A DNA stretch of 58,216 nucleotides from an uncultured Pseudomonadales bacterium (GCA_964509285.1 CAZDWQ010000002.1:1-58216), one strand, 5' to 3'. Shown: positions 7,464 to 26,226, counted from the first letter of the stretch. Notes: a model not told the origin generated them from the letters alone. Numbers and translations: made by a program.

Positions 7464-7601
7464 CTGCGGCCAATTACTGGTCGAGCACTACTAACACCAC
7501 GAATACTCATAACGCCTGGTACACTAACTTGAGTAATGGTAACACGAACAACAATACCAAGACGAATAATAACTCGTTTAGGTGTGTACGTTAGCGCAAG
7601 G
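7464..7601 (+). repeat. DGR template repeat (TR)
   Basis: 138 bp that is the reverse complement of 10658-10795 (paired positions sum to 18259). 127/138 positions are identical. All 11 mismatches fall at TR adenines: 7502, 7509, 7526, 7536, 7541, 7542, 7548, 7551, 7554, 7566, 7569. Confidence 0.92.
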
Positions 7602-7611
7602 ACTCTTATTT

Positions 7612-7968
7612 ATGACAATGTTTTATCAAAGCATGCCACTGTATCTTGGGCTTTTGGATTTACTTAAATTTGAATACCTAATAGTTAAAGGCTTGCCAAA
7701 AGAATATAAACACACTCTGGGTGAGAATATTCTCAGCCTAACTTGGCAACTCATCGACTTATTTATAGAAATACAGCTTAATCAGTCATTTAAAACACCA
7801 AAAAAACTGTATCTCATAAAATCAATGAATACCTATCATGAGCAACTCAAATTACGAATTCGATTCTTAGGTGATTTGAAACTCATCTCACTTAAACAAC
7901 AAGCCACAATAAATACACATGTTGTTGAAATTGGCAAAATGATTGGGAGCTGGATTAAAAATGTATAA
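7612..7968 (+). CDS. avd: DGR accessory variability determinant (Avd-like four-helix-bundle protein)
   Basis: About 118 aa, lying directly upstream of the RT. The C-terminus ...VVEIGKMIGSWIKNV resembles the Bordetella phage Avd C-terminus (..EVGRILGSWIARV). The start is taken as ATG 7612 rather than the track start at 7582, which lies inside the TR. Confidence 0.75.
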   Translation: MTMFYQSMPLYLGLLDLLKFEYLIVKGLPKEYKHTLGENILSLTWQLIDLFIEIQLNQSFKTPKKLYLIKSMNTYHEQLKLRIRFLGDLKLISLKQQATINTHVVEIGKMIGSWIKNV

Positions 7969-7979
7969 CAAACTCCCTT

Positions 7980-9125
7980 GTGCCTGCTAGTATTTTTTGC
8001 TATCAAAAAGTGCTTAAGGCATATTTTAATTGTCGTATTAATAAGCGAAAGTCTATTAGTGCGATTTCTTATGAACTCCAACTTGAAAAAAATTTAGCAG
8101 AGCTAACGACGCAACTTCAGCAAAGAACCTATATTCCAGATAGATTGGTATGTTTTGTTATCACAAAACCAAAGGCAAGAGAAATCTTTGCCTCCGAATT
8201 TGCAGACCGCATTACACACCACATTTTGATAAACGAGGTAGAAAAGATTTGGGAAAAAGATATTTTCATTACCGACTCATATGCTTGCAGAAAAGGGAAA
8301 GGTCATCACTTCGCAGCTCAAAGGGTATACTCGTTTGCACAGAAATATCGTTATTATGGACAGTTTGATATCAAAAATTTCTTCTCAAGCCTCAGTAAGC
8401 AAAAATTGTTTGATCAGTTTCGTAAGGTGATAGTAAAACAACATAGACCAGGGTTTTGGAAAGATGATATTTTATGGCTTGCGAAAACCATTATTTTTAA
8501 TGACCCCACACATAATGCTTTTTACAAGGGAGACCCCAAACTCAAATTACTGTTACCACACCAAAAATCACTCTTTGAACAAGATGAAGATATTGGTATG
8601 CCTATTGGAAATTTAAGTAGTCAATTTTTAGCAAACGTGTATATGCATGAGCTAGATGCATTTGTCACAAATGAGCTTAAAATTCCTGCCTATGCTCGGT
8701 ATGTTGATGATTTTATTATTTTTAGCAATTCAAAAGATGAAATTATCAAAGCTAGAAATGAAATGTCGAAATTTCTGTTCGCAAACCTTAAACTTACTCT
8801 TCATCCAAAGAAACAACAAATTCAACCAACCAAGCATGGCATTCCCTTTGTTGGCTATTTTATTAGACCCACTGGCATACAAGTGAGACGTAATGTAGTT
8901 AAGGCAGTGAAGAACAAACTGTATGCATATAAAAAGCAACCCAATCCAGATGCAATGATTACTTCACTGAATTCATACTATGGCCACTTTTGCATTGCTC
9001 GGTCATACAATTTAAGGAAACACTTATTTTTTGAACATATTGATCCCAAACTTCGGCCTATCCTTTGGATCATTGGCAATTGGAAGTATTTTAGGCTCAC
9101 TAAGAGTTGCAAGCTTAAAAAGTAA
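7980..9125 (+). CDS. DGR-type reverse transcriptase
   Basis: 381 aa with a GTG start. It has the KPKAREIFASEFADRITHHIL motif, the DGR-diagnostic IGNLSSQFLANVYM (LGxxxSQ-type rather than QGxxxSP), and the catalytic YARYVDDFIIF box. Confidence 0.9.
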   Translation: MPASIFCYQKVLKAYFNCRINKRKSISAISYELQLEKNLAELTTQLQQRTYIPDRLVCFVITKPKAREIFASEFADRITHHILINEVEKIWEKDIFITDSYACRKGKGHHFAAQRVYSFAQKYRYYGQFDIKNFFSSLSKQKLFDQFRKVIVKQHRPGFWKDDILWLAKTIIFNDPTHNAFYKGDPKLKLLLPHQKSLFEQDEDIGMPIGNLSSQFLANVYMHELDAFVTNELKIPAYARYVDDFIIFSNSKDEIIKARNEMSKFLFANLKLTLHPKKQQIQPTKHGIPFVGYFIRPTGIQVRRNVVKAVKNKLYAYKKQPNPDAMITSLNSYYGHFCIARSYNLRKHLFFEHIDPKLRPILWIIGNWKYFRLTKSCKLKK

Positions 9126-9135
9126 CCATAAGTTA

Positions 9136-9201
9136 TTGACATTTAAAAAATAGTTGTTAGACTAATAACTAGACTAATCGCTAGACTGAAAATAGACTAA
9201 T
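9136..9201 (+). promoter_or_regulatory. putative promoter (TTGACA-N16-TAGACT) overlapping four phased direct repeats of TAGACT(A/G)A
   Basis: TTGACA lies at 9136-9141. Repeat units start at 9158, 9170, 9182 and 9193, giving 12/12/11-bp spacing. The array ends at the fic ATG (9203). Confidence 0.5.
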
Positions 9202-9202
9202 T

Positions 9203-10408
9203 ATGAATGAAATTACAATACTAAAACCATTTACTAAGCCTTTCTTAAACCAACTCATTCTCACCCCGAGTTTACTTCCTTTTACAGATGAAGAAATTCT
9301 TAAGCTTGATAGTGATTTGAGTCAATATGAACAGCTATTCTTAGATCCTGATATTGAAAAAAACCTTATTAGCAAGAATGAGTTATTAGCCTCTTTTGCT
9401 ATTTCTAAAGCAGAGAACTCTAGCCTAACGCTCCAAGAGGCACAAGATATATATGCTTTCATTTTAAAAAATGAAGAGTACTCCTTCATAGCAGAAAAGC
9501 TAAAAGCCAAAAAAAAGCTAACCAAAAAAGATTACGAAAAACTTGAGTTTTTCAACATCGCTAAAACTTTCAGAAATTTTCAAGCAGTAAAAATCAATGA
9601 CATCACACCACAGTTTATCCGAGATTTACATCAGCAATTAACACAAGGTTTGGATGTTTTCCAAAACTATTTGCCACACTTTGACATTTACAAATCGGGA
9701 AGTTGGAGAAACAACGATACAATTCGAGTTGGGTCTTACCAACCGGCTCCCTATACTTCTATCCCAGCTGGAGTCACTGAATTATTAAACTGGATAAAAG
9801 AGCACCAAACAATTACTTCTGTTGGTATCTTTCACACAGCACTGTATGCACTTCACCCATTTTGCAACGGAAATAAAAGAGTCTCAAGAATCCTTGAGCA
9901 TATATTGCTTAGATCCTTGAACATTAATACAAAAAATTTATATAGCACTTCTTACTACTACCACAAGGAAAAAACTCGATACTACAAATACCTTCTCTTT
10001 TCTTTAGAGCGAAAGAACTTAAATCATTTTGTCAATTTCTTTCAGGAATCACTTGTGCTCTCAATTCTTGCAGTCATAAAGACCAGTCTTGAAGTAAAAC
10101 GTATGGATTTTCTGGAAAGCAAAGATCTAGATGCTCAAGCAAAGCTTGTTTGTAGACCACTTATCAAAAGACATGAAGTCCAATTTAAAAATCTACTAAA
10201 AAGTATTGGTAACAAAATGGCTCGCCAGACTTTTGTTAACTACCTACAATTAGCTGTAGACCAAGGAGTAGCCATTAGAAGAGAAAGTGGTAAAACTACT
10301 TTTTACAGTTTGAACATATCTCCACAAGAAGAAAGTACGTTTAAAGAAATGCTTACATTTATACAAACAAAACTTTCATTCATTCCTGACGAGATTAAGT
10401 TAGCGTAA
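9203..10408 (+). CDS. Fic/DOC-family protein with non-canonical active-site motif and C-terminal winged-helix-like region
   Basis: The motif HPFCNGNKRVSR sits at the expected position, compared with the canonical HPFx(D/E)GNGRxxR. 401 aa. Confidence 0.75.
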   Translation: MNEITILKPFTKPFLNQLILTPSLLPFTDEEILKLDSDLSQYEQLFLDPDIEKNLISKNELLASFAISKAENSSLTLQEAQDIYAFILKNEEYSFIAEKLKAKKKLTKKDYEKLEFFNIAKTFRNFQAVKINDITPQFIRDLHQQLTQGLDVFQNYLPHFDIYKSGSWRNNDTIRVGSYQPAPYTSIPAGVTELLNWIKEHQTITSVGIFHTALYALHPFCNGNKRVSRILEHILLRSLNINTKNLYSTSYYYHKEKTRYYKYLLFSLERKNLNHFVNFFQESLVLSILAVIKTSLEVKRMDFLESKDLDAQAKLVCRPLIKRHEVQFKNLLKSIGNKMARQTFVNYLQLAVDQGVAIRRESGKTTFYSLNISPQEESTFKEMLTFIQTKLSFIPDEIKLA

Positions 10409-14673: not shown

Positions 14674-16480
14674 TCTTGTGCAATCAAACTATCAAATTAT
14701 AAAAAAATGGAATTCTAAAAAGATGCGTAAATTCCGTGCTGGTCAGGAAAAGAAGCGTCGAGAACGGTTGTCCCTACAGTTTAGTTTTGGTGAGCAAGAT
14801 CAAGTTGATCTGATTTCATATTCTGGATTGATGGAAGAATCAACCTATGTGCAGATTGGCGACACCTTTGTACGAACACTGTTTATTTCTGGCTATCCAT
14901 ATGTAGCTAATGTAGGTTGGTTAAATATGCTTATAAATTTTAACCATGACTTGGATATTTCATATCATATTGAACAAGTAGATCCTTTAATGGCTCTGCC
15001 AAAACTTAATCGCAAAATAACTGAGCTTGAATCAACCAAACGAAGCATGCTTAAAGCCGGAAAAGTGATTGGTTCTGAAATTACTGATCCGCTTGAGTCT
15101 GCCATGGAACTGAAAGACAAAATCCAAAGAGGGCAAGAAAAACTCTTTCAGATATCTATTTATATGACTTTGAGTGCAAGTAGTTTGGAAGAGTTAAATA
15201 AAACTACTCAGGTGTTAGAGACAATCATGGCCTCCAGAATGTTTTATATTAAAACTGCCACCTTTCAGCAATTAGAAGGTCTACAATCTGTTTTACCAAG
15301 GGGTGAAAACCAACTCGCACAAAAAAGAAACTTGGATAGTTCGAGTGCCGCACTTACTTTTCCGTTTGTTTCATCTGAGCTAGTGCAAGAATCTGGTATT
15401 TTGTATGGAATTAATAAGTCAAATAACTCGCTGGTCATTGTGGATCGGTTTTCTTTGAATAATGCTAACTCAATTATTTTTGCTCAATCTGGAAGTGGTA
15501 AAAGCTACACTGCTAAGGTCGAAATCTTGCGTCAACTCATGCAACAAACCAAAGTGATTGTTATTGACCCAGAGCGGGAATATAAACAACTTGCTAAATC
15601 TATTGGTGGCACATATATTCGTTTGTCTGCAACTTCTAAAGAGAAAATTAATCCTTTTGATTTTTCGCTTAAATCTGTGACTGGTGAAAATGGACTGGCT
15701 GAACACATTCAAGATCTAACTGAGATTATTTCATTGATGGCAGGTTCACTCTCTGATGAAGAACGTGCAGTGGTAGATAAAGCATTGATTAAAACTTACA
15801 AGCAGTTTGGTATTAGTATGAGAAAACAAAAGTATGAAGAAAAAGTAAAGTTCCCACTTCTCAAAGATTTTTATAAAGTGCTCAAGACCATGAAACAAAA
15901 AGAATTGTGTCACAGGTTAGATAAGTTTGTGAGTGGTTCACTTTCTAGCGTATTTACCGCACAAACTAATGTAGATCTATCTAACAGACTGGTTGTTTTT
16001 GATATTAAAGATCTTGATGAGTCATTGCGCCAGATAATGATTCTCACAACTGCCAATTTTGTTCACTCACAGGTGAAAAGTGATCCACAAAAAAGAATTT
16101 TAGTCATAGATGAGGCTTGGTTGCTATTACAACATGAAGAAAGCGCTCGATTCCTAGCAGGTCTTGTAAGGCGTGCCCGCAAACATTACTTAGGAGTGAC
16201 TTTAATTTCTCAACAAGCTAATGACTTTTTGAATCAAGAATACGGCAGAGTTATTGCCTCACAATCATCTTTGAGAATTCTGATGAAACAGGATACAACC
16301 TCAATTAAAAAAGTAGTGCAAGAATTTAACTTGAGTGAGTATGAGCAACAATTTTTACTGACTTGTGATCGAGGCGAAGCCTTAATTATTGCTGATCAAA
16401 ACCATGTTGCCGTTAAAATTGTTGCTTCAGAAAAAGAACACCCAATGTTAACCACTGATCCGAAAGATTTATATCTATAG
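14666..16480 (+). CDS. virB4: VirB4-family T4SS ATPase (central and C-terminal ATPase domains)
   Basis: Walker A FAQSGSGKSYT and Walker B RILVIDEAWLLL are present, plus YLGVTLISQQ. The context is T4SS genes. Confidence 0.9.
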   Translation: MFNLVQSNYQIIKKWNSKKMRKFRAGQEKKRRERLSLQFSFGEQDQVDLISYSGLMEESTYVQIGDTFVRTLFISGYPYVANVGWLNMLINFNHDLDISYHIEQVDPLMALPKLNRKITELESTKRSMLKAGKVIGSEITDPLESAMELKDKIQRGQEKLFQISIYMTLSASSLEELNKTTQVLETIMASRMFYIKTATFQQLEGLQSVLPRGENQLAQKRNLDSSSAALTFPFVSSELVQESGILYGINKSNNSLVIVDRFSLNNANSIIFAQSGSGKSYTAKVEILRQLMQQTKVIVIDPEREYKQLAKSIGGTYIRLSATSKEKINPFDFSLKSVTGENGLAEHIQDLTEIISLMAGSLSDEERAVVDKALIKTYKQFGISMRKQKYEEKVKFPLLKDFYKVLKTMKQKELCHRLDKFVSGSLSSVFTAQTNVDLSNRLVVFDIKDLDESLRQIMILTTANFVHSQVKSDPQKRILVIDEAWLLLQHEESARFLAGLVRRARKHYLGVTLISQQANDFLNQEYGRVIASQSSLRILMKQDTTSIKKVVQEFNLSEYEQQFLLTCDRGEALIIADQNHVAVKIVASEKEHPMLTTDPKDLYL

Positions 16481-17101
16481 ATGCATGCTGTTTTTACCGC
16501 CCACACCATTTGGTCTTTTAGAAAAGAGTTGCAATTTGTAGCCCTCACTTTCTTGATTTTGATATCACTACCGATTATTGCAGTAGTTATTTTAACCAAC
16601 ACTGGTATCAATATTGTCTCGGATGCTTTAATCGATATTGAGCCAGAGACACAAACTATCTTGATTAAAAACCCTGCAGATGGGTCAGTAGTAAAAGAAG
16701 TGTCTAAAAAAGTTGCTTGGCCTGTAAATGGCAAAACCACCCTCGATTTTGCAGACTCAAGTAAATATCAGAAATTCCACGCAGGAATTGATATTGCTAA
16801 TGCTAGTGGGAGAGTTGGTGATCCCATTACTCCGTTTATGGAAGGCACTGTTACTTACGCTGGAGAAATTTTCTGGGGTTATGGCAAACACGTCATGATT
16901 GATCATGGGGATAATATTTCTTCTGTGTATGCACATCTAGACCGTATTCAGGTTTATAAGGGTCAGGAAGTGAATATCGGTGACACTATTGGCACTATGG
17001 GTAGTACTGGCTGGTCTACAGGGCCTCATTTGCATTTTGAGATTAGGGTGTATGGGGTGCCGGTGAATCCGAAAGTCATTCTATTAAATAATTTAAAATG
17101 A
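16481..17101 (+). CDS. M23/LytM-family peptidoglycan endopeptidase (T4SS-associated hydrolase)
   Basis: An N-terminal TM is present. Metal-site motifs are HAGIDIA (HxxxD) and GPHLHFE (HxH). The ATG directly abuts the virB4 stop. Confidence 0.9.
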   Translation: MHAVFTAHTIWSFRKELQFVALTFLILISLPIIAVVILTNTGINIVSDALIDIEPETQTILIKNPADGSVVKEVSKKVAWPVNGKTTLDFADSSKYQKFHAGIDIANASGRVGDPITPFMEGTVTYAGEIFWGYGKHVMIDHGDNISSVYAHLDRIQVYKGQEVNIGDTIGTMGSTGWSTGPHLHFEIRVYGVPVNPKVILLNNLK

Positions 17102-17185
17102 TTAATATTTATGATCCTATTTAGTCAAGATAAAGTAATCTAAAGTCTTATAATAAAATTATAATGTGATATAATAATGAAATAA

Positions 17186-19342
17186 ATGAACAATAAACCA
17201 ATTTCAGCATTATCACTACCACTGAGATTAGAAAACTCGTTAAGACGTAATAAAATTGTCTATCTTAATGATTTGCAAATAATCGACGAAGAATTATTGG
17301 GAAAAATTAAGAATATTGGACCCAAATCTGTTCAATTAATTAAAAAGTCCTTAAAAGAATACTTAATCTTAAAAGAAAATTTTTCAGAAAAGTCATTGTT
17401 AAACAAAGATTTGCAATCAATTATTAAAATGATTTCATTTTCTAAACTAGAAAATAGTGCATTTTCAACAATAAACATTTATGATGAGCATAAAGAAATT
17501 TCAAATATAAACACCACGATAAATGAAGATCATAATGAAATTGAAAATAATGACATTGTGTCAAATAATAATCATAAGCAAGTAGCAAATTATCCGATAT
17601 TTTCAATCAATCTTCCAGAGAGAATAGAAAATTCATTAATTAAATCTAATATTAATACTCTTTCATCTTTAGCAAATTGTCATCAATCTGACCTACTTAA
17701 AATTAAAAATATAGGTCAAACATCAATAAATATAATTATTTCTCAAGCAAAAAGGTTCATATCAAAAAACTTCTCCAAAATTATTGATATTTCTGAGTTA
17801 GAAAATATTGATAGTTTTAATGATATCTCGTCATTATTGAAAGAATTACTAACTAAACAAGCAATAGAATCAAGAAAAAATTTGCAATCAAAATCTAAAG
17901 AAGAAATGATATTAGATTATTTTAGTGATTTAGAAACCTATCTAAATGATTTTATTCAATCTAATATTCTAACAAATAAAGAAAAAATAATTCTAAATAA
18001 TAGGTTGAGAATAATGAAGAATAATTCGTCTATTAGAACATATACACTTGAGGAAATTGGAAATAATAACCAAGTTAATCTCACAAGAGAAAGAGTTAGA
18101 CAATTAGAAAAAAAGTTACTTATAAAATTATCAAATAAAATAGATTTTTTTAATTCATTTCATTTTAATGAACACCAATTAATAAGGACAGTAATAATAA
18201 ATTATGTAAATCAACTTGGATTCATACAATGGCCAAATGATCTGCCTTTATTAATTAATGAACTAAATGTAAATAATAAGCTCTTAAATATTAAGTTTTA
18301 TGAATATTTAACTTTTCGTGAAATTAACAAAATTAGCGGGCTAAATGAGTATAAATATAAAGATTTATCATACTTTTTTTATAATGATGATTTTAATAGG
18401 ATCCAAATTAATAATATTTTAAAGAACTGTATAAATAGATTAAAGAAATATGAATATCCTATTATAAATGAAAATGATTTGTATGATAAATCTCTACTAA
18501 ATACAAAAGAAGTGAAATTAATCAGAGATATTATTTCAAAGTTATCAGATTTCATTTTTTTTGACAATCAATACAAGATTAAAGAAATGAAACCGTATCA
18601 ATTTGCATATTTAATTCTTGAAGAACACAATAATCCCATGCATTACGAGATACTATTTAATAAAATTAAGGAACGGACTAATGTTGGCTCAATATTAACT
18701 TTTAAAAATTCCTTACTAAATGACAAACATATAATCACTCAAGGGAATGGGATGTATGCATTAAACAAATGGGGATTGAAAAGATATAAAAGAAATGTCC
18801 ATTATGGAAAGAATACTGTAAAAAATCTCATAAGGGAATATATAGCTATAAATCTAAACGCATCCAATGATCAAATTAAACAATATGTTTTAAGCAAAAG
18901 AAATGCTGCTGATACAACAATTACACAAGGTATTTCTGATGTCAATCAGAAACTGAACAGGCATAGTAAAAAAATTTCAATTCCGGATTTAATTATTGAG
19001 TTCTTTTCAAATCATAAAGAAGCAAATTTTAAACAAATTTATACCTACATTGAAAAAAGAAAGCATAATGTTAAAAAGGGTCAAGTTTATACCGCAATTT
19101 ATAACTATTGCAAAAAGAATGATGAGGGAAATTACTATTTATATAAAAATAAGAAAAAAAGAGTCAAAAATAACTCAATAAAAGAAAAATTAATCTTATG
19201 TTTAAAAGAAAATACACCGCTTACTTTAGATGAAATATTTGTAATATTATCAAAAAATAATAAAGTTAGTAAAAATACTATAAGATCTTACATAAGTAGT
19301 CTTGAAATAAAACAAGATGAAAATGGAAAATACTCATTATAA
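17186..19342 (+). CDS. 718-aa multi-HTH DNA-binding protein: two RpoA alpha-CTD-like HhH modules, sigma-70 region-4-like HTH, HARE-HTH-like module and further wHTH-like repeats
   Basis: Alpha-CTD-like modules: LSLPLRLENSLRRNKIVYLNDL...LLGKIKNIGPKSVQLIKKSL and INLPERIENSLIKSNINTLSSL...LLKIKNIGQTSINII. Sigma region-4-like: YTLEEIGNNNQVNLTRERVRQLEKKLLIKL. HARE-HTH-like: PYQFAYLILEEHNNPMHYEILFNKI...GNGMYALNKWG. Confidence 0.65.
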   Translation: MNNKPISALSLPLRLENSLRRNKIVYLNDLQIIDEELLGKIKNIGPKSVQLIKKSLKEYLILKENFSEKSLLNKDLQSIIKMISFSKLENSAFSTINIYDEHKEISNINTTINEDHNEIENNDIVSNNNHKQVANYPIFSINLPERIENSLIKSNINTLSSLANCHQSDLLKIKNIGQTSINIIISQAKRFISKNFSKIIDISELENIDSFNDISSLLKELLTKQAIESRKNLQSKSKEEMILDYFSDLETYLNDFIQSNILTNKEKIILNNRLRIMKNNSSIRTYTLEEIGNNNQVNLTRERVRQLEKKLLIKLSNKIDFFNSFHFNEHQLIRTVIINYVNQLGFIQWPNDLPLLINELNVNNKLLNIKFYEYLTFREINKISGLNEYKYKDLSYFFYNDDFNRIQINNILKNCINRLKKYEYPIINENDLYDKSLLNTKEVKLIRDIISKLSDFIFFDNQYKIKEMKPYQFAYLILEEHNNPMHYEILFNKIKERTNVGSILTFKNSLLNDKHIITQGNGMYALNKWGLKRYKRNVHYGKNTVKNLIREYIAINLNASNDQIKQYVLSKRNAADTTITQGISDVNQKLNRHSKKISIPDLIIEFFSNHKEANFKQIYTYIEKRKHNVKKGQVYTAIYNYCKKNDEGNYYLYKNKKKRVKNNSIKEKLILCLKENTPLTLDEIFVILSKNNKVSKNTIRSYISSLEIKQDENGKYSL

Positions 19343-19358
19343 AGTGTATAATTGACAT

Positions 19359-19532
19359 ATGAAAAAAAATGATGATGATCTGATTCTACTCAAGGATCTT
19401 TGCCAAAAATATGAACTAAACTTTGATAAAGTAGAAAAACTCATAGAAGTTACAAAAGAATTTGAGATTAAGGATACTAGAAATGGCATTTATAATGCTT
19501 TAAAAGAGATAATTGAGAACAGAAATTTTTAA
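19359..19532 (+). CDS. 57-aa hypothetical protein (below ORF-track cutoff), packed between island genes
   Basis: Hand translation gives MKKNDDDLILLKDLCQKYELNFDKVEKLIEVTKEFEIKDTRNGIYNALKEIIENRNF. Its stop lies 2 nt before the next ATG. Confidence 0.4.
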   Translation: MKKNDDDLILLKDLCQKYELNFDKVEKLIEVTKEFEIKDTRNGIYNALKEIIENRNF

Positions 19533-19534
19533 TA

Positions 19535-21514
19535 ATGATAATTAAAAGAATTTTAATAGATAATTACAAATCATTCCAAAAACCAACTGAAATATATTTC
19601 CCATCTACTGATGATGAAAAGAATATCTTTTTAATTGGAGGCATGAATGGCGCTGGTAAAACATCATTATTAGAAGCAATTTCAATCTCACTTTATGGTG
19701 AAAAAAAAGAGTATATTTACAAAAGAATAAATAAAAATGAATTTGAAAATAATAATTTTTCGGTCATTTTTGAATTAGAATTAGAAACAGACGAATTTGA
19801 CATTTTAATAATCAGAAGAACCTACAAGTGTAACGAGCCAAATAATCCAAATCCTAGTAATTTTGAGGAATTACTTTCTATAACCAAAAATGGCGAACAA
19901 ATTAGTTATAGAAATAATAACGCTTGGAATGATTATATAGCCTCAAGATTCCCAAAGAGTATTACCCAGTTTTTCTTTTTTGATGGTGAAAAAATTCAAG
20001 AAGTTGCCGACGATGATCATTTTGAAATTAGATTAAAAAGCTCATTAGAGGCTGCTCTTGGTATTAAATTTTTATCTCAATTATCATCTGATATATCAAA
20101 AGTTAAGCAAACTGAAAGACAAGGTTTTATTGAAATATCAAATGAAGATATAAAATTAAAAGAAAATAATATTGAATTGTTAAATAGTAAAATAAATAAA
20201 TTAAATAATAATAGAAATATAATTCAAAATGAAATTAATGATTTAGAAAAAGAACATAGTTTAATTAAAAAAAGATTTAAAATACTATTTAACCAGGATC
20301 CAGAACAAGCAGATGAAATTAATAAAAAAGAATTAGAAAAAACTCAATTAATTATTAAATTAAATAAAATTGAAAACGAAATAAAATTAGTAATCGAAAA
20401 TTTTTTACCTTTATCATTGAGCAGTTCAGTTTTTGCTGATATTAAAAAACAAATTGAAGCAGAATCTGATTCTTCACAGCAGACCACACTTAAAGATTCC
20501 ACAGAAATCATAGTGGATATTGCAATAAAGTCTCTTTATGAACCCTATAAAATAATCTCTAATGATCTCTCAACAAAAGATCAAAATGAATTTAAAAAAA
20601 GAATTAGAGATTACATTGATACAGATAAAAATAATAATGATAAGATTTTGGACTTAACACAAAGAGAGGCTGCAAGTATTCTAAATGTCATCAAAAATAT
20701 TGAACAAAGCGACATTAGAAGACTAGACATTCTTATTGAAGAAAAATCTGAATTAGAAAACAGTTTGAAATTTATAAATGAAAATTTAAGAACTAGAAAT
20801 GATAATGATCAAAGTACCTTTTCTTCTCTTCAAGATGAAATTGATAATTTATCAACTCAGATAGGAAGAAAGAATGGTGAACTAAATTCTGTAATCGACT
20901 CAATTCTTGAAAATGAAGAAAAGATTAAGAAAGAAGAAAATGACTTATCTTATCTTTATGAAAGAATTAACTTATCAAAAGAAAAATCAGACTTCATTAC
21001 TGAATGCGAAAATCTATCAACAATGCTAAATGAATATGTAGTACTTCTAAGAGAAAAGAAAAATAAATTACTTAAAGAAAAAACTCTTGAGATGTATAAA
21101 CTTTTATCAAGTAAAAGCGATCTTATTTCCGATATAATAATAGACCCAAATACATACGAAGTAATCATCAAAGATACCAATAACTTAGAAATTAAAAAAT
21201 CTGTTTTATCAGCTGGTGAAAAAGAAGTTTTTGCCATCTCGCTACTTTGGGGATTAGCTCAAACTAGCAAAATTAATCTTCCAATAATTATTGATACTCC
21301 ATTATCAAGACTAGATAGTCTTCATAGAGATAATATTATAAATAATTATTTTCCAAATTCAGGAAAACAAGTAATTATTTTATCTACCGATACAGAAGTA
21401 GATAACAAATATTATCAGGATTTGAAAAAATATCTGGTTGGATCAGGTACGTTATTTTTTGATAAAGATAAACAAAGAACTTCCTTTAAAGAAAATTATT
21501 TTGGAGAAAATTAA
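19535..21514 (+). CDS. DndD/SspC-like SMC-type ABC ATPase
   Basis: The N-terminus is IFLIGGMNGAGKTSLLEAISISLYG, followed by a long central coiled coil. The C-terminus is LSAGEKEVFAISLLWGLAQ..PIIIDTPLSRLDSLHRDNIINNYFP..QVIILSTDTEV. Confidence 0.8.
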   Translation: MIIKRILIDNYKSFQKPTEIYFPSTDDEKNIFLIGGMNGAGKTSLLEAISISLYGEKKEYIYKRINKNEFENNNFSVIFELELETDEFDILIIRRTYKCNEPNNPNPSNFEELLSITKNGEQISYRNNNAWNDYIASRFPKSITQFFFFDGEKIQEVADDDHFEIRLKSSLEAALGIKFLSQLSSDISKVKQTERQGFIEISNEDIKLKENNIELLNSKINKLNNNRNIIQNEINDLEKEHSLIKKRFKILFNQDPEQADEINKKELEKTQLIIKLNKIENEIKLVIENFLPLSLSSSVFADIKKQIEAESDSSQQTTLKDSTEIIVDIAIKSLYEPYKIISNDLSTKDQNEFKKRIRDYIDTDKNNNDKILDLTQREAASILNVIKNIEQSDIRRLDILIEEKSELENSLKFINENLRTRNDNDQSTFSSLQDEIDNLSTQIGRKNGELNSVIDSILENEEKIKKEENDLSYLYERINLSKEKSDFITECENLSTMLNEYVVLLREKKNKLLKEKTLEMYKLLSSKSDLISDIIIDPNTYEVIIKDTNNLEIKKSVLSAGEKEVFAISLLWGLAQTSKINLPIIIDTPLSRLDSLHRDNIINNYFPNSGKQVIILSTDTEVDNKYYQDLKKYLVGSGTLFFDKDKQRTSFKENYFGEN

Positions 21515-23040
21515 TGTCAGATAGACTTTTTACATCATCAGATACAGAAAAAATTATTAGAGAATTAAGATTAGAAACAAAACTAACTCAAACTTTGTTA
21601 TCGAAAGTTGCTTTTATTATTTCACTAACAAAAGTAGGAAATAAAGTTAGTAGTAATAATGACTTTAAAGGAATGAGAGTCAATAGAACTGCATTCAATG
21701 GAGAAGATGAAATTTTTATTCGTACACTAATTAGACATGCTTATAAAAAAACCACTTTTACTGATGATGAAATCTTTTCAAATAAATCAATAATTAAGTA
21801 TCATATTGATAATGGTGCTCAAGAGCTAAACAACATTTACAAGAATGTAAATTTTGATACCAACTCTTTTTTAAAAAGTTTGGCTGTAATTGCATCAAAA
21901 GATCTTAATAACACATATTTGGGTAAAGATTTAAATATTTTCTTAGGGAATACAACTCTTGAGAATGATAGTTTAATAATGGAATTAAATAATAGTGCTA
22001 AACATGCAAATTCGCATATGGCAATCATGGGAAAGCCTGGTGTTGGTAAGACACAATTCTTACTGAAAATTTTAACTGATATTAGAATACAATCTAAATT
22101 TCAAACAAATTTTATATTTTTTGACTACAAAGGTGACGTCGTAACAAACGAAAATTTTGTAGATCAAACAAAAGCCTCTACTTACAAGTTATTAAATAAT
22201 AATCAAACTATACCAATAAATCCTTTTATTTTACCAAGCTACGATGAACAATCAGTGCTAATCTCATCAAGAGAAAAAGCAGAATCATTTGCTTCAATAA
22301 ATTCAAAGTTAGGAACTGTTCAAAAGGGTACGCTTTCTGAGGCTATTAAAATTGCATACTCAAAAAGAAAGAAGCTTGAACTTCCATATCCAGATTTTAA
22401 AGAAGTATATACAATTATTCAAAAAATTTACGAAGAAGAAGAGAGAAGGAATGATAGTCTCATTGAGGTAATGAAAGACCTTTCTGATTTCAACTTATTT
22501 TGGAGTCATGGAGATAGCTCAAAACCAATAGAACAGCTTTCCAATCGAACAATGATTGTTGATATTCATTCCATGCCTGTTCTTAAAGAATTAGTAGGAT
22601 ACTTAGTAATTGAGAGATTATATAAAGAAATGCTCACTCTACCTGATAGTCCTATCGAAAATGGCAAGCGCACCATTAGAACAATATTAGCAATTGATGA
22701 AGCACATAATTATCTACCTCAAAAAAATATATTTTTACAAAGGATTATTAGAGAAGGAAGATCTAAAGGAATTTTTGTTTTCTTTGCATCTCAATCACCC
22801 AATGATTACCAGCAACAAGATTTTAATTTTCAGGAATTACTAGAATTTGCATTTATATTTCAAACTGAAGGTGTATCTGCAAAATCAGTCCAAGATATTC
22901 TAGGTTGTACAAATAATACTGCTAAAGAGCTGCAAACAGAAATTTCTAGATTATTACCATTTCAAACTATTTCAAAAAGCTTTTCTAAAAATAAAGAATT
23001 TACTAAGTTTAAAGCTGAAGCATTTTATAAGAATTACTAA
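21514..23040 (+). CDS. fusion protein: DndE-like N-terminal domain plus HerA/FtsK (DUF87)-type P-loop ATPase
   Basis: The N-terminal ~110 aa (FTSSDTEKIIRELRLETKLTQTLLSKVAFIISL...NRTAFNGEDEIFIRTLIRHAY...KYHIDNGAQEL) follow the DndE pattern. Walker A is IMGKPGVGKTQ and Walker B is ILAIDEAHNYL. The start overlaps the DndD-like stop (TAATG). Confidence 0.65.
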   Translation: MSDRLFTSSDTEKIIRELRLETKLTQTLLSKVAFIISLTKVGNKVSSNNDFKGMRVNRTAFNGEDEIFIRTLIRHAYKKTTFTDDEIFSNKSIIKYHIDNGAQELNNIYKNVNFDTNSFLKSLAVIASKDLNNTYLGKDLNIFLGNTTLENDSLIMELNNSAKHANSHMAIMGKPGVGKTQFLLKILTDIRIQSKFQTNFIFFDYKGDVVTNENFVDQTKASTYKLLNNNQTIPINPFILPSYDEQSVLISSREKAESFASINSKLGTVQKGTLSEAIKIAYSKRKKLELPYPDFKEVYTIIQKIYEEEERRNDSLIEVMKDLSDFNLFWSHGDSSKPIEQLSNRTMIVDIHSMPVLKELVGYLVIERLYKEMLTLPDSPIENGKRTIRTILAIDEAHNYLPQKNIFLQRIIREGRSKGIFVFFASQSPNDYQQQDFNFQELLEFAFIFQTEGVSAKSVQDILGCTNNTAKELQTEISRLLPFQTISKSFSKNKEFTKFKAEAFYKNY

Positions 23041-23050
23041 TTTAATTAAT

Positions 23051-23257
23051 ATGTCATCACTACAAAAATTCGGTCAAAACCTTAAAATGGCAAGAGAAAG
23101 TAAAAACCTAACTCAAGAAGAGCTTGCAACTAAAGCTGATCTTAGTGCTAATTACTTTGCAAAGATTGAAAGAGGTGAAATAAACATCACTTATAAAACC
23201 TTATATAAGATCATTATTGCTTTAAAAACGAAATCATCTGAAATTTTACCATTTTAA
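23051..23257 (+). CDS. XRE-family helix-turn-helix regulator
   Basis: LKMARESKNLTQEELATKADLSANYFAKIERGE is a classic HTH_XRE sequence. 68 aa. Confidence 0.85.
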   Translation: MSSLQKFGQNLKMARESKNLTQEELATKADLSANYFAKIERGEINITYKTLYKIIIALKTKSSEILPF

Positions 23258-23457
23258 TTCTTAAGCACTTTAGTTTTTTTTCTTTCCAAATCTTTTAATT
23301 CCGAAGTAAAAATCCTGAGGCAAATTTCAATCATATCTAGATGTATAATTGTCTCCTGCAATGAGCCATTTGAATTCTTTTTGGCAATATTATACAAATT
23401 TTTTACAATATCCATGTTTTTTTTCATTGCTATCTGCGACTTAGTACTTATTTTCAT
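23254..23457 (-). CDS. 67-aa hypothetical protein downstream of the PLD nuclease gene
   Basis: An ORF only, co-oriented with the PLD gene. No motif was recognised. Confidence 0.35.
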   Translation of the reverse strand: MKISTKSQIAMKKNMDIVKNLYNIAKKNSNGSLQETIIHLDMIEICLRIFTSELKDLERKKTKVLKN

Positions 23458-23515
23458 AAATTCTACCTTTCATTAGAAAATATTATTTGAGATATACTAT
23501 CACGCTTTTTTGATA

Positions 23516-24007
23516 TCAAATAAATTTTTCAAGTTTTAAAAAATCGAACATAACTTGAGCATGGTTAGCCCCTTGAATCCTTCTCATAATTTCTCGACTC
23601 TTTGTTTGTGACAAAATATTAAGACTTCCTTCCCACAATATTTTTCTATCTAATATTGCAAGTTTTCTATGATGATTATTGGTGGCTGATAAAACATGAA
23701 CTCCCAGAATCTCAAATTCTTTAATTATTTGTCTGGAATAACTTGCCAGTGGTTCTTTTAAAAGGTTGGCACTTTTTGTTATTACATAGACTTTTATATC
23801 TTTTTCAATTAGTTTTTCAAAGATTGGGAATAAATGATCCATTCTGGCTAACGATATAAACGGACTTTCAATGATGACTTCTTCTTCACATTCGAGTAAA
23901 TCATTAATGAATGAAGGATAAAAAGTTTTCTCATCAAATAGTTTTGAATTAAAAACGTCAGATTTTTTTGTTTTAGTCTTAAACCACATCAGAATCTCCC
24001 TCTTCAT
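23516..24007 (-). CDS. PLD-superfamily (HKD) nuclease, Nuc-like single-domain
   Basis: HxKxxxxD plus GSxN is present as NHHRKLAILDRKILWEGSLNILSQ. The 163-aa size is typical of Nuc/NucT-type endonucleases. Confidence 0.8.
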   Translation of the reverse strand: MKREILMWFKTKTKKSDVFNSKLFDEKTFYPSFINDLLECEEEVIIESPFISLARMDHLFPIFEKLIEKDIKVYVITKSANLLKEPLASYSRQIIKEFEILGVHVLSATNNHHRKLAILDRKILWEGSLNILSQTKSREIMRRIQGANHAQVMFDFLKLEKFI

Positions 24008-24180
24008 CTATTTGATATGCTATCATTAACTTATGAAAATGAACTAGAAGTGGTTCAAAATAAAAGGCGTCTCCTCCACATAGTTTTAATACTAGAAAAA
24101 ACTTTCAAATTGTAATAAAATACGGGTATTCGTAGATAAGGTTCATAAGAAAACTGTACCAACAGTAAACTCGAAAAAGT

Positions 24181-24216
24181 AACAAGCTTCCATTAATTGG
24201 GAGCTTGTTTTGTTTT
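24181..24216. terminator. orphan bidirectional terminator-like hairpin
   Basis: AACAAGCTTCC-N7-GGGAGCTTGTT is followed by TTGTTTT on the plus strand and by ACTTTTT on the minus strand. Confidence 0.45.
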
Positions 24217-24329
24217 ACACCGACATTTTTTAATAGAATAAACTGTTTTAACCAATAAAGTATGAAAAAGTATGACCCATAGATCGGTCCTTTTTTAATT
24301 TTGGTACTTGCAAGCTCTAGCATAAAAAT

Positions 24330-24368
24330 CTAGAATGAAGTTCTAGTGCCCAACACTAGATTTTTTTT
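24330..24368 (+). terminator. two overlapping, mutually exclusive hairpins; the second is followed by T8
   Basis: The first hairpin is CTAGAA-tgaag-TTCTAG (24330-24346). The second is CTAGTG-cccaa-CACTAG (24343-24359), followed by A and TTTTTTTT. Confidence 0.5.
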
Positions 24369-24604: not shown

Positions 24605-24922
24605 ATGCAAGCGCCTACCTACACTAAAGTATCAAATTACGAAGGAAGGAAGGGAGAAGTCAAAAAAGTTGTACTTCTGTATTCTGGAGGGCTTAACACT
24701 TCTGTCATGCTCAAGTGGATTCAAGAAGAATATGGTGCCCAAGTTGTCGCCCTCACCATAGATATTGGCCAGCAAGCTGATGACCTTGAAGAAATCAGAA
24801 AAAAGCACTCAAATTTGGAGCTGTCAAAACCATCGTCATCGACGCCAAAAATGAATTCGCCTACCACTATATTGCCAAGGGAATCAAGGCAAATGCCAGT
24901 TATCAAGGCAAATATCACATGA
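24605..24922 (+). CDS. argG: argininosuccinate synthase, N-terminal fragment (frame 0; authentic sequence only up to codon ~66)
   Basis: [37 protein letters not shown] is the N-type ATP pyrophosphatase P-loop region. After EIRKK the translation becomes nonsense, while the -1 frame continues as ArgG. Confidence 0.85.
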
Positions 24923-26226
24923 GCACGCCTTTAGGCAGGCCACTGCTTGCTAAACTCGCCGTCCAAGTTGCCAGAGATGAAGAGTGTGACACGATCGCTC
25001 ACGGGTGCACCTGCAAAGGCAATGATCAAGTCCGCATCGAAGGCACCGTCCTCACCCTTACCCCAGAAATGAAAATCATTACCCCCGTTCGCGAGTGGAG
25101 TATGGGCCGTGATGAAGAAATCGCTTATGCAAAAAAATATGGCATTCCGGTCAAGCAAACCGTCGACAAGCCGTATTCCTACGATGACAACATGTGGGGC
25201 GTGACCGGGGAGAGTGGAGAAATCGAAAATCCGGCCCTGATTCCTCCGCTAGATAAAATTCTCCAAGTTTGCAGTTTAGTAGAAAAAACCCCAGATAAGC
25301 CACAATACATCAAACTTAACTTTGTCAAAGGCATTCCGGTCAAACTTGATGGCAAACACCTGGGGCTTACTGAAGTTATCCATAAACTCAATGCACTTGG
25401 CGCCAAACATGGAGTAGGGGTGACGCATCATATAGAAGATCGGTTGGTCGGACTCAAAGTTCGCGGACTCTATGAAGCTCCTGCCGCCGAGATTATTATC
25501 AACGCACACTTTAATCTGGAAAAATATGTCTGTACTCGGGTTGAAAATGAGTTTAAGGCTGAAGTTGACAACAAATGGGCATATCTCTGTTATGGCGCAC
25601 TCTGGTATGAGCCACTTATGGATGACCTCAACGCATTTATCGATAAAATCAACGAGAAAGTTACCGGAACCGTTACCATCAAACTCTTTAAAGGTGTCGC
25701 CGAAGTGGTCGCAGTAGAAACTGCCAACTCAATTTTCGATGAAAAACTGGCAACCTTTATGCGAAATAACGCCTACAACCAAAATGCTTCGCCTGGATTT
25801 ATCGAAATTTACACTATGCAGATGCGTTTGGCTCAAAAGAAAGAGCGGTTTGTGCTCCTTACTATCGGCGGTGATTCAAACAAGAGAAAATTCCTCCCGG
25901 CTATTAAGGAACTAGACAAACTTGGCTACCAATTTTACGCCACTGAGAATACACACAAGTTCTATGAAAAACACGGGATACGTTCCGTCTTCATATACAA
26001 GATGTATGAAAATAAAAATCCAAATATTGAGGATGTTCTCAGGCAAGATATATTCGATTTAGTCATTCATATCCCATACAAGAGCAACCCAAAGGAGGCA
26101 AAACTCGATGAGAGCATCGTTAAAAAGTGGGCTGTACGAACAGAAGTTCCAATTATCAACGACGCCAAAATTTTGAATGAGTTAGTGAAGAAACTCAAGA
26201 AAAATATGGTGGTGGCTAGTAAGTAA
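24919..26226 (+). CDS. argG: argininosuccinate synthase, main body (frame open from 24805) with C-terminal MGS-like domain
   Basis: [38 protein letters not shown] and ...[21 protein letters not shown] are ArgG motifs. The extra ~125 aa, [46 protein letters not shown]..., resemble the CarB allosteric MGS-like domain. Confidence 0.9.

What the first reader, a model, noticed from the sequence alone, without database searches (positions are those of the whole stretch)
17102..24340. AT-rich island with a DndD-like ATPase, a DndE::HerA-type ATPase fusion, a multi-HTH DNA reader and a PLD nuclease, but no DndA/DndC: candidate undescribed defence system
Base composition drops sharply between the M23 peptidase gene and the argG leader, and the proteins become Asn/Lys/Ile-rich, pointing to foreign origin. 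One tightly packed plus-strand operon encodes four proteins. First is a 718-aa multi-HTH protein. Second is a 57-aa ORF. Third is a 659-aa ATPase matching DndD/SspC-type SMC-like ABC ATPases motif for motif (LIGGMNGAGKTSLLEAISISLYG; coiled coil; LSAGEKEVFAISLLWGLAQ..PIIIDTPLSRLDSLHRDNIINNYFP..ILSTDTEV). Fourth, joined through a TAATG stop/start overlap, is a 508-aa protein with a DndE-like N-domain and a HerA/FtsK-type P-loop. An XRE regulator follows, and a convergent single-domain HKD nuclease closes the island. DndD and DndE normally act with a cysteine desulfurase (DndA/IscS) and the PAPS-reductase-like DndC to phosphorothioate DNA. None of DndA, DndB, DndC, DndFGH or SspB/D/E is present in the island or in the window. 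A DndD+DndE module recombined with a translocase-type ATPase, a nuclease and a sigma/HARE-HTH-type DNA reader has the flavour of an anti-phage or anti-plasmid system. I cannot assign it to any named system.
Basis: partly seen in the sequence, partly recalled or inferred. Interest (0 to 1): 0.85.

Follow-up and report, generated by a model that had tools for sequence, protein, structure and literature searches.

The report
Dnd-derived ATPase module lacking modification enzyme
A four-gene operon dropped into a defence-gene hotspot reuses the DNA-handling parts of the bacterial DNA-sulfur (Dnd) system, fused to a DNA motor and led by a large DNA-binding protein, with no DNA-modifying enzyme and no nuclease; it is a rare subtype of a widespread, apparently uncharacterised restriction-like system.

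Summary
The genes and the GC drop are real. Synteny with related genomes puts the inserted block at 17083-23050, which is four genes only. XRE, the small ORF and the PLD nuclease belong to a conserved T4SS-element backbone that flanks a cargo hotspot, with three different cargoes seen in three genomes.

The four genes are:
- a 718-aa reader made only of DNA-binding domains (two RNAP alpha-CTDs, sigma-70 region 4, HARE-HTH, winged helices);
- a 57-aa Sp-DndD, which is the detached C-terminal tail of DndC;
- a genuine DndD-family ABC ATPase;
- DndE fused to the DndH/DptH C-terminal HerA/FtsK-type motor.

The last three form a module found in at least 135 species across many phyla, and the fusion is 60-71% identical throughout. 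In about 80% of loci the module follows a nuclease-methyltransferase and an S subunit. In a distant branch it follows a DndC core. The window belongs to a small clade in which the long reader replaces the enzyme.

It is not Dnd, DndFGH, Pbe, Ssp, Septu or MADS by membership tests. The most likely role is anti-mobile-DNA defence. The mechanism is inferred. Literature searches mostly failed, so novelty is provisional.

The parts
17083..23050 (.). Inserted cargo block. This is the true extent of the island, set by the synteny break against L148.
   Evidence: blastn of the window against L148 aligns 14950-17082 and 23051-24080 at 82% identity, with nothing in between. GC is 0.21-0.30.
17186..19342 (+). 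718-aa reader made only of DNA-binding domains: two RNAP alpha-CTD units (about residues 1-60 and 128-190), sigma-70 region 4 (262-315), an unassigned helical middle region, then HARE-HTH and winged helices (about 473-718).
   Evidence: Pfam RNA_pol_A_CTD 67.9 bits in two stretches; Sigma70_r4 22.8 bits. Residues 473-718 are homologous to HARE-HTH proteins of L006 and L147. Family scan: sigma-4 in 8 of 11 members, alpha-CTD in 7, HARE-HTH in 4, no enzymatic domain. The AF2 model is poor (pLDDT 47.9).
19359..19532 (+). 57-aa Sp-DndD, a stand-alone homolog of the C-terminal tail of DndC. Its presumed role as an adaptor to DndD is inferred.
   Evidence: PF20306 32.7 bits (cutoff 27.2). It matches positions ~405-455 of PADLOC DndC models and 397-446 of TIGR03183. 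The family profile hits Halorubrum DndC residues 418-467 at E about 1e-10. It keeps 17 of 22 family-conserved columns.
19535..21514 (+). 659-aa DndD-family SMC/Rad50-like ABC ATPase, intact.
   Evidence: TIGR03185 352.6 bits (cutoff 245.85). PADLOC DndD 397.5 bits. Full-length 214-bit match to DndD of a genuine dndCDEA cluster and no match to the adjacent PbeC. It keeps 114 of 126 columns that are at least 95% conserved, including Walker A/B, Q-loop, signature and STDTE.
21514..23040 (+). 508-aa fusion: a DndE-family domain (about residues 4-109) plus a DndH/DptH C-terminal-type HerA/FtsK ATPase (about 140-500). Its start overlaps the DndD stop (TAATG).
   Evidence: PF08870 39.2 bits. hhalign to a genuine DndE gives E 1.9e-4. 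PADLOC DndH C-terminus 131 bits. PDB 7ES4 scores E 1.7e-27 by sequence and E 2.8e-20 with TM 0.79 by fold. Walker A and DEAH are invariant across the family.
16481..17101 (+). Left boundary of the hotspot: M23 peptidase, the last gene of the T4SS cluster. Backbone, not part of the module.
   Evidence: Pfam Peptidase_M23. 79% amino-acid identity to L148. Same position in L152 and L153.
23051..24007 (.). Right boundary of the hotspot: XRE HTH (23051-23257, +), 67-aa ORF (23254-23457, -) and 163-aa PLD nuclease (23516-24007, -). Backbone, not part of the module.
   Evidence: XRE is 94%, the 67-aa ORF 54% and the PLD 83% identical at amino-acid level to L148. The same trio flanks different cargo in L148, L149, L152 and L153. 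The PLD family has 3248 homologs, up to 92% identical.

Best explanation
Window 17083-23050 is a four-gene cargo operon. It sits in a variable slot between the M23 peptidase and the XRE gene of a conjugation-type (T4SS) element in a small-genome, probably Patescibacteria-like, bacterium.

It is a methyltransferase-less subtype of a widespread Dnd-derived module. The module consists of Sp-DndD (the detached DndC tail), DndD (an SMC/Rad50-like ABC ATPase) and DndE fused to the DndH C-terminal HerA/FtsK-type motor.

Shown:
- The homologies.
- The module's tight conservation and gene order.
- Its coupling to alternative upstream 'heads': a DndC core, a PD-(D/E)xK nuclease::m6A-methyltransferase with an S subunit, or, in the window's clade, a long protein with only DNA-binding domains.
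- The hotspot and defence-island contexts.

Inferred mechanism:
3. A DndD dimer clamps or nicks the DNA in an ATP-dependent way.
4. The DndE domain holds the nicked or distorted site.
5. The attached ring motor translocates along the DNA.
6. The result is damage to invading DNA or a block to its replication.

No modification enzyme or recognisable nuclease is encoded.
For: Identity:
- Domain calls.

Conserved module (133 non-redundant loci):
- DndD lies directly upstream of the fusion in 126 of 129 loci, and Sp-DndD lies upstream in 99 of 102.
- The fusion is 60-71% identical across many phyla.

Alternative heads:
- MTase in 61 of 74 loci and MTase plus S in 58 of 74.
- The MTase carries a conserved D130...E147-x-K149 nuclease motif.
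- A split DndC core, Sp-DndD, DndD and DndE::HerA occur together on the M. extorquens AM1 megaplasmid.

The window type is inherited, not decay:
- P0001, P0002, P0003, P0004 and P0005 form one clade.
- Every member with known context has the long reader and no MTase in the operon.
- The deeper, TGA-recoded L139 has the same layout.

Genes are intact.

Defence context:
- Three different cargoes occupy the same slot.
- L006 lies next to a type I RM system and L139 next to a type III RM system plus a recombinase.
- Septu is nested inside the operon in several loci.
- Integrases are nearby.

Precedent for nuclease-free exclusion by an SMC-like ATPase system: PbeABCD (PMC6459918).
Against: - There are no experimental data for any family member.
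- No nuclease or modification enzyme is present in the window operon, so both the effector step and self-protection are unexplained.
A cryptic activity cannot be excluded.
- In about 80% of family loci the module works alongside an RM-like enzyme pair. The bare module may therefore be insufficient on its own.
- Guilt by association is indirect evidence.
- The literature could not be searched properly, so an existing description may have been missed.
Confidence: 0.55

Rival explanations
1. Non-nucleolytic exclusion. This is the same module, but it acts as PbeABCD is reported to act: the SMC-like DndD and the ring motor load onto target DNA chosen by the reader, then block replication or transcription without cutting. 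For example, they could occupy AT-rich promoter or UP-element-like DNA recognised by the alpha-CTD and sigma-4 domains.
For: No nuclease domain is found in any of the four proteins or in 11 reader-family members. PbeABCD contains a small protein plus an AAA_23 SMC-like ATPase and halts viral replication with the DNA left intact (PMC6459918).
Against: The window proteins are not homologous to PbeB, PbeC or PbeD by direct comparison. The closest structural relative of the motor belongs to DndFGH, which is a DNA-damaging restriction complex. In the main family, the module sits beside a conserved PD-(D/E)xK nuclease.
Confidence: 0.2
2. A split phosphorothioation or other modification system. The Sp-DndD/DndD/DndE::motor chassis works with a DndC-like core and a cysteine desulfurase encoded elsewhere in the genome, and it modifies host DNA. 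The reader provides targeting or regulation.
For: Sp-DndD is the DndC tail. On the M. extorquens AM1 megaplasmid a tail-less DndC core (277 bits to DndC) sits directly upstream of Sp-DndD, DndD and DndE::HerA. DndD passes the TIGR03185 equivalog cutoff.
Against: There is no PAPS-reductase or PP-loop protein in the 58-kb window other than ArgG, and no desulfurase was seen. None of the five window-type loci has a DndC core adjacent. In the closest large group, the position is filled by a methyltransferase, not by DndC. Only the window is available, so the rest of the genome is untested.
Confidence: 0.1
3. A decaying or orphan remnant of the RM-linked system that has lost its nuclease-methyltransferase and S subunit. 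It would now be non-functional, or dependent on an unrelated RM system.
For: About 80% of family loci carry MTase plus S. Sporadic MTase-less loci exist in other lineages. L006 and L139 sit beside classical RM systems.
Against: The MTase-less layout with a specific long reader is shared by a whole clade and by a deeper TGA-recoded branch. All catalytic motifs are intact and the genes are tightly packed. The enzyme was replaced by a different protein, not simply deleted.
Confidence: 0.1
4. Part of the conjugation machinery of the T4SS element. The HerA/FtsK-type ATPase would serve as a coupling-protein-like DNA pump, and the reader as a relaxosome or oriT accessory factor.
For: The operon directly follows the T4SS pilin, PrgI, VirB4 and M23 genes. 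The fusion has weak TrwB_AAD_bind and AAA_10 hits and its fold resembles TrwB.
Against: The same T4SS backbone exists in L148, L152 and L153 without these genes. The family is otherwise linked to RM genes and integrases, not to T4SS genes. No full-length member occurs among 72,556 plasmids. 7ES4 and HerA are much better matches than TrwB.
Confidence: 0.05

Closest known systems
DndCDE core of the DndABCDE DNA phosphorothioation system
   Same: DndD is a full-length homolog: 214 bits to DndD of a dndCDEA cluster and TIGR03185 above its cutoff. The fusion's N-domain belongs to the DndE family. The 57-aa ORF is homologous to the DndC C-terminal tail. Gene order (tail, DndD, DndE) mirrors dndC-dndD-dndE.
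   Different: There is no DndC catalytic (PAPS-reductase/Fe-S) body, no DndA/IscS and no DndB in the window. DndE is fused to a motor ATPase. TIGR03184 (the DndE equivalog) is not reached: 36.4 bits against a cutoff of 71.85. No sulfur chemistry is encoded.
DndFGH (DptFGH) phosphorothioate-dependent restriction complex, specifically the DndH/DptH C-terminal domain (PDB 7ES4)
   Same: The ATPase half of the fusion (about residues 140-500) is the closest sequence and structural relative of the DndH C-domain: E 1.7e-27 by sequence, Foldseek E 2.8e-20 and TM 0.79. PADLOC DndH models match only through their C-termini.
   Different: DndF, DndG and the ~1,250-residue N-terminal part of DndH are absent. 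Here the motor is fused to a modification-side protein (DndE).
The main (unnamed) RM-linked family: nuclease::N6-MTase, S subunit, Sp-DndD, short Mrr_N/RAMA reader, DndD, DndE::HerA. NCBI annotates the fusion only as 'DndE family protein'.
   Same: The Sp-DndD, DndD and 508-aa fusion are the same, at 60-64% (fusion) and 45-49% (DndD) identity. Gene order and tight packing also match.
   Different: The window clade lacks the HSDR_N_2::N6_Mtase/Eco57I enzyme and the S subunit. It replaces the ~212-aa short reader with an unrelated 600-720-aa alpha-CTD/sigma-4/HARE-HTH protein.
PbeABCD (phosphorothioate-blocked DNA exclusion; Xiong et al. 2019, PMC6459918)
   Same: The layout is analogous: a ~60-aa protein, then an AAA_23 SMC-like ATPase, then another protein. 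PADLOC 'PbeC' models score up to 377 bits on the window's DndD. Many pbeAC pairs are solitary or next to MTases, and exclusion occurs without DNA cleavage.
   Different: In direct comparison with a genuine cluster (L150), the window's DndD does not match PbeC, Sp-DndD does not match PbeB, and the fusion does not match PbeD. There is no PbeA (PLD-ResIII-helicase).
HerA-based defence complexes (SIR2-HerA/Nezha, DUF4297-HerA, TdpAB) and type I restriction enzymes
   Same: The motor has a ring-translocase fold. In the main family the logic resembles type I RM: the HsdR-type nuclease domain is fused to HsdM-like MTase, there is a separate HsdS-like subunit, and an ATP motor is supplied separately.
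   Different: There is no SIR2, DUF4297, NurA or TdpB partner and no SF2 HsdR motor. In the window there is no MTase, S subunit or nuclease at all.

Membership tests
DndABCDE phosphorothioation system | DndC: PAPS-reductase-like PP-loop/Fe-S sulfurtransferase | tested here: not met
   Only a 57-aa homolog of the DndC C-terminal tail is present. There is no PAPS_reduct or SGGxDS protein in the window apart from ArgG. The rest of the genome is unavailable.
DndABCDE phosphorothioation system | DndA/IscS cysteine desulfurase | tested here: not met
   None was found among the island proteins or the window ORFs that were scanned. Not every small window ORF was scanned, and a copy acting in trans elsewhere in the genome cannot be tested.
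DndABCDE phosphorothioation system | DndD SMC-like ATPase | tested here: met
   TIGR03185 352.6 bits against a cutoff of 245.85. 214 bits, full length, to DndD of a dndCDEA cluster.
DndABCDE phosphorothioation system | DndE, a stand-alone ~110-130-aa protein that binds nicked DNA | tested here: inconclusive
   The Pfam DndE domain is present (39.2 bits, cutoff 25) and hhalign to a genuine DndE gives E 1.9e-4. However, the TIGR03184 equivalog is not reached (36.4 against 71.85), and the domain is fused to a 370-aa ATPase.
DndABCDE phosphorothioation system | Phosphorothioate modification of DNA | not testable with these tools
   Requires LC-MS/MS or PT-sensitive cleavage of host DNA.
DndFGH restriction complex | DndF, DndG and full-length DndH (~1,700 aa) | tested here: not met
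   PADLOC gives no DndF or DndG hits. DndH models match only at positions ~1275-1714. 7ES4 covers only the C-domain.
PbeABCD | PbeA (PLD + ResIII + helicase C), with PbeB, PbeC and PbeD | tested here: not met
   There is no PbeA-like protein. phmmer and hhalign against the genuine Halorubrum PbeB, PbeC and PbeD give no matches. The high scores on PADLOC 'PbeC' models are not reproduced against that PbeC.
SspABCD-SspE/FGH | SspB (DUF4007), SspC, SspD (PAPS reductase), SspE (DUF262-DUF1524) | tested here: not met
   No Ssp models appear among the listed PADLOC hits of the eight island proteins. For DndD only the best 25 of 64 matching families were listed, all DndD or PbeC. No DUF262, DUF4007 or PAPS_reduct was found by Pfam.
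Type I / IIG / BcgI-like restriction-modification | DNA methyltransferase, specificity subunit and nuclease | tested here: not met
   These are present in the main family. They are absent from the window operon and from the scanned remainder of the window.
Septu (PtuAB) / Lamassu | PtuA AAA_15 ATPase with PtuB HNH; or LmuB SMC with an LmuA effector | tested here: not met
   The best 25 PADLOC families for the window's DndD are all DndD or PbeC. Genuine PtuA/PtuB are separate genes nested in some family operons. Lamassu models did not appear among the listed hits; only 25 of 64 were listed.
MADS (methylation-associated defence system) | The eight-gene mad1-8 set | tested here: not met
   Only the motor resembles mad8 (69.7 bits). 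In the main family the MTase and S subunit resemble mad2 and mad5 weakly (110 and 95 bits). No other mad hits appeared among the listed results.
Sp-DndD / DndD / DndE::DndH-CTD module (unnamed family defined here) | Three adjacent co-directional genes: a ~60-aa Sp-DndD, a ~660-aa DndD and a ~508-aa DndE::HerA fusion | tested here: met
   All three are present, intact and tightly packed in the window. The same trio recurs in 126 of 129 loci (DndD) and 99 of 102 loci (Sp-DndD).

The most novel reading that the evidence does not exclude
The Sp-DndD/DndD/DndE::DndH-motor trio is a general, ATP-driven DNA-scanning chassis. Evolution has plugged it into interchangeable 'heads': DndC sulfur chemistry, a nuclease-m6A methyltransferase, or a pure DNA reader. 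The window type is a modification-independent immune system. Its reader, built from RNA-polymerase promoter-binding domains (two alpha-CTDs plus sigma region 4) and a HARE-HTH, would recognise foreign promoter or UP-element DNA, or foreign DNA modifications, and direct the motor complex onto it. That would be a previously undescribed sensing principle.
Probability: 0.2. Interest if true: 0.85.

Novelty: new variant of a known kind. Interest (0 to 1): 0.6.

Why it matters
Dnd proteins are known only as parts of DNA phosphorothioation (DndA-E) and its cognate restriction (DndFGH).

This study shows three things:
- The DNA-handling half of that machinery (the DndC tail, DndD and DndE), welded to the DndH motor, circulates as an independent and extremely conserved module. 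The fusion is 60-71% identical between distant phyla, and the module occurs in at least 135 species.
- The module is usually coupled to an m6A nuclease-methyltransferase rather than to sulfur chemistry.
- In a small clade it is coupled to no enzyme at all.

If the module is functional, this reframes DndD and DndE as a generic DNA-processing engine. It also offers a type I-like restriction system with a non-SF2 motor, and a candidate modification-free defence system in small-genome bacteria.

There is an annotation consequence too. These genes are currently labelled 'DNA sulfur modification protein DndD/DndE', which would wrongly predict phosphorothioation.

Tried and rejected
Literature:
- The paper most likely to describe Sp-DndD (Krishnan et al. 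2020, PMC7544218; id confirmed) is not held.
- Kaur et al. 2020 (eLife) does not mention Dnd.
- Tong et al. 2018 timed out.

Hypotheses rejected:
- PLD and XRE as system components: rejected by synteny.
- Pbe membership: suggested by PADLOC PbeC scores and the PbeB/PbeD sizes, but rejected by direct comparison with a genuine cluster.
- A coupling-protein role in conjugation: rejected by backbone comparison.

Dead ends:
- Structure of the 718-aa reader: the model was too poor to use (pLDDT 47.9), so no fold search was run on it.
- A shared region between the long and short readers: none found.
- Flanking direct or inverted repeats: only AT-rich noise.
- Promoter scan: fewer sites than in shuffled sequence.
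- Rfam: only tRNA-Ala.
- Plasmid, phage and E. coli collections: no full-length family member.
- Host naming through 90% clusters: no names attached.
- The PDB hits for the PLD were spurious matches to designer PPR repeats.

Full report
**Observation.** GC drops to 0.21-0.30 between about 17.0 and 24.0 kb, against 0.35-0.39 upstream and 0.42-0.48 downstream. Profile searches confirm the domain calls:
- The 718-aa protein has two RNAP alpha-CTD units (67.9 bits) and a sigma-70 region 4.
- The 659-aa protein scores 352.6 bits on TIGR03185 DndD (cutoff 245.85).
- The 508-aa protein has an N-terminal DndE domain (PF08870, 39.2 bits) followed by a HerA/FtsK-type P-loop ATPase.
- The 68-aa protein is an XRE HTH.
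- The 163-aa minus-strand protein is PLDc_2.

Two details were new. First, the 57-aa ORF is Pfam 'Sp-DndD' and matches the last ~50 residues of DndC models. Second, the ATPase of the fusion is closest to the C-terminus of DndH. It matches the solved DndH/DptH C-domain 7ES4 at E 1.7e-27 by sequence. A confident AF2 model of the fusion (pLDDT 80.5) matches 7ES4 at Foldseek E 2.8e-20 with TM 0.79, ahead of the HerA, SIR2-HerA, TdpAB and TrwB rings.

**True extent of the island.** The PLD protein has much closer relatives (83-92% identity) than the Dnd-like genes do. In a related 213-kb contig (L148), window 14950-17082 (VirB4 and M23) and window 23051-24080 (XRE, small ORF, PLD) each align at 82% nucleotide identity. 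The interval between them holds P4-cII-like, Beta_protein, M78-peptidase and HigB genes instead. In L152 and L153 the same backbone carries a single AAA_15/AAA_21 ATPase in that slot. L149 shows the PLD-XRE pair beside yet other genes.

The insert is therefore 17083-23050, four genes. XRE, the 67-aa ORF and the PLD belong to the backbone of a T4SS-bearing element. That element comprises T4SS pilin, PrgI, TraC/VirB4 and M23, with an ArdC-like protein further upstream. The M23-XRE junction behaves as a cargo hotspot.

**The module is widespread and highly conserved.**
- The fusion has at least 890 homologs, nearly all 508-509 aa and 60-71% identical to the window protein. Where NCBI names them, the name is only 'DndE family protein'.
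- A scan of one genome per species found 135 encoding loci. They span Pseudomonadota, Desulfobacterota, Bacteroidota, Bacillota, Planctomycetota, Acidobacteriota, Spirochaetota, Chloroflexota, Nitrospirota, Verrucomicrobiota and others. A metagenome scan added 55 more loci.
- Across 133 non-redundant loci, DndD lies directly upstream of the fusion in 126 of 129, and Sp-DndD lies upstream in 99 of 102.
- Where at least 7 kb of upstream sequence is available, an HSDR_N_2::N6_Mtase/Eco57I protein is present in 61 of 74 loci, and together with a Methylase_S-type subunit in 58 of 74.
- The N-terminal domain of that MTase keeps a D...E-x-K nuclease motif in at least 90% of 53 sequences. It falls in PADLOC type I MTase families.
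- A ~212-aa reader is present in 47 of 74 loci. It has a shared N-terminal region and either an Mrr_N or a RAMA head.
- Septu PtuA/PtuB is nested inside the operon in several loci.
- No full-length member was found on 72,556 plasmids, in 50,697 phage records or in E. coli genomes.

**The window is an inherited subtype.** The window's closest fusion relatives (P0002 71%, P0003 67%, P0004 66%, P0005 65%) form one clade with it. Every member of that clade with known context has a long alpha-CTD/sigma-4/HARE-HTH protein, then Sp-DndD, DndD and the fusion, with no MTase in the operon. A deeper, TGA-recoded locus (L139) has the same layout and sits next to a type III RM system and a serine recombinase. 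L006 is followed directly by a type I RM system.

The long reader family is rare. Only about nine near-full-length representatives exist among 1.84 billion proteins. The family contains only DNA-binding domains. It shares nothing detectable with the short readers. The window's DndD keeps 114 of 126 strongly conserved columns, including all ATPase motifs. The fusion's Walker A and DEAH motifs are invariant across the family.

**Origin of the module.** A genuine dndC-dndD-dndE-dndA plus pbeABCD cluster on a Halorubrum trapanicum plasmid (L150) served as the reference. Against it:
- The window's DndD aligns full-length to DndD (214 bits) and not at all to PbeC.
- The Sp-DndD profile hits DndC residues 418-467 (E about 1e-10) and does not hit PbeB.
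- The fusion's N-domain aligns with DndE (E 1.9e-4) and not with PbeD.

The unannotated Methylorubrum extorquens AM1 megaplasmid provides an intermediate form. A 380-aa DndC core (277 bits to DndC residues 24-371) is followed by a 70-aa Sp-DndD, a DndD and a 514-aa DndE::HerA. This gives a series:
1. DndC-DndD-DndE.
2. DndC core | tail | DndD | DndE::motor.
3. Nuclease-MTase | S | tail | reader | DndD | DndE::motor.
4. The window type: long reader | tail | DndD | DndE::motor.

**Mechanism.** What is shown is homology, conservation, modular head-swapping and defence-type context. What is inferred is the following. Sp-DndD tethers it to DndD. DndD clamps or nicks the DNA. DndE holds the lesion. 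The ring motor translocates. Invading DNA is then damaged, or its replication is blocked. PbeABCD provides a precedent for replication block without cleavage (PMC6459918). The missing nuclease and the missing self-marking are the main weaknesses of this account.

The rivals are split phosphorothioation with a distant DndC core, a decaying RM remnant, and a conjugation function. Each is less likely, for the reasons given in its entry.

**Comparison and novelty.** The block fails membership tests for DndABCDE, DndFGH, PbeABCD, Ssp, RM, Septu/Lamassu and MADS, although it is clearly derived from Dnd. Pfam's wording for PF20306 ('small protein found in certain Dnd DNA modification systems') shows that at least the small protein's association was noticed computationally. 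I could not read the likely source, and paper searches mostly failed, so prior description of the family cannot be excluded. I found no dedicated PADLOC (2023) or NCBIfam (2026) model and no solved structure for the fusion. I therefore rate it a new variant of a known kind, with moderate-to-high interest.

Noticed in passing
window 16481-17101 / 23051-24007; L148, L149, L152, L153: The junction between the M23 peptidase and the XRE/PLD genes of this T4SS element is a cargo hotspot. Three cargoes were seen in three genomes: the Dnd-derived operon; cII-like/Beta_protein/M78/HigB; and a 596-aa AAA_15/AAA_21 ATPase. In L149 a 73-aa AAA_23 fragment lies next to XRE.
   Followed up: partly
window 7582-10408: A diversity-generating-retroelement-like pair, bAvd (7582-7968) and a reverse transcriptase (7980-9125), is followed by a Fic-domain protein (9203-10408). 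I did not search for template or variable repeats.
   Followed up: no
window 216-998: An ArdC-N-like (anti-restriction) protein lies upstream of the T4SS genes, which fits a conjugative-element origin for this part of the window.
   Followed up: no
window 24605-26226: argG is split into two overlapping ORFs (105 aa and 435 aa), and the second reading frame continues upstream of its ATG. This is either an apparent frameshift or a sequencing error. The second ORF also carries about 130 extra C-terminal residues beyond a typical ArgG. No Rfam leader element was found upstream.
   Followed up: partly
L001/L010 6048-7990; L108, L118, L137, L140: A complete Septu pair (PtuA 407 bits, PtuB 210 bits) is nested inside the canonical operon, upstream of DndD, in several unrelated lineages. 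This suggests either recurrent insertion or functional cooperation.
   Followed up: partly
L139 (whole locus), L141: These distant members of the module use TGA as a sense codon, with 17-23 in-frame TGAs per gene and GC of 0.25-0.29. They therefore come from code-25/4-type organisms.
   Followed up: partly
L151 5257-10239 (Methylorubrum extorquens AM1 megaplasmid NC_012811.1, about 1013848-1018830): This stretch is unannotated in the plasmid collection's gene table. It encodes a split DndC (380-aa core plus 70-aa tail), a DndD and a DndE::HerA fusion, which makes it a possible phosphorothioation-type system with a built-in motor in a laboratory model organism.
   Followed up: partly
PADLOC models PDLC02756, PDLC02740 and others ('PbeC') compared with L150 7912-9837: PADLOC 'PbeC' models score 300-377 bits on this DndD-family protein, yet the PbeC of a genuine dndCDEA-pbeABCD cluster shows no phmmer similarity to it. 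Several 'PbeC' models therefore appear to describe DndD-like proteins, which could cause mis-annotation.
   Followed up: partly
L147 3-1882: The long reader gene of this window-type locus is interrupted inside the sigma-4 'TRERVRQLE' motif at a (GA)n run. This could be a frameshift, phase variation or an assembly error.
   Followed up: no
L130-L133 (364-aa ORF upstream); L006 11024-11884: YhcG/DUF1016-type PD-(D/E)xK nucleases lie near some MTase-less or type I-linked members of the module. They are possible alternative nuclease partners.
   Followed up: no
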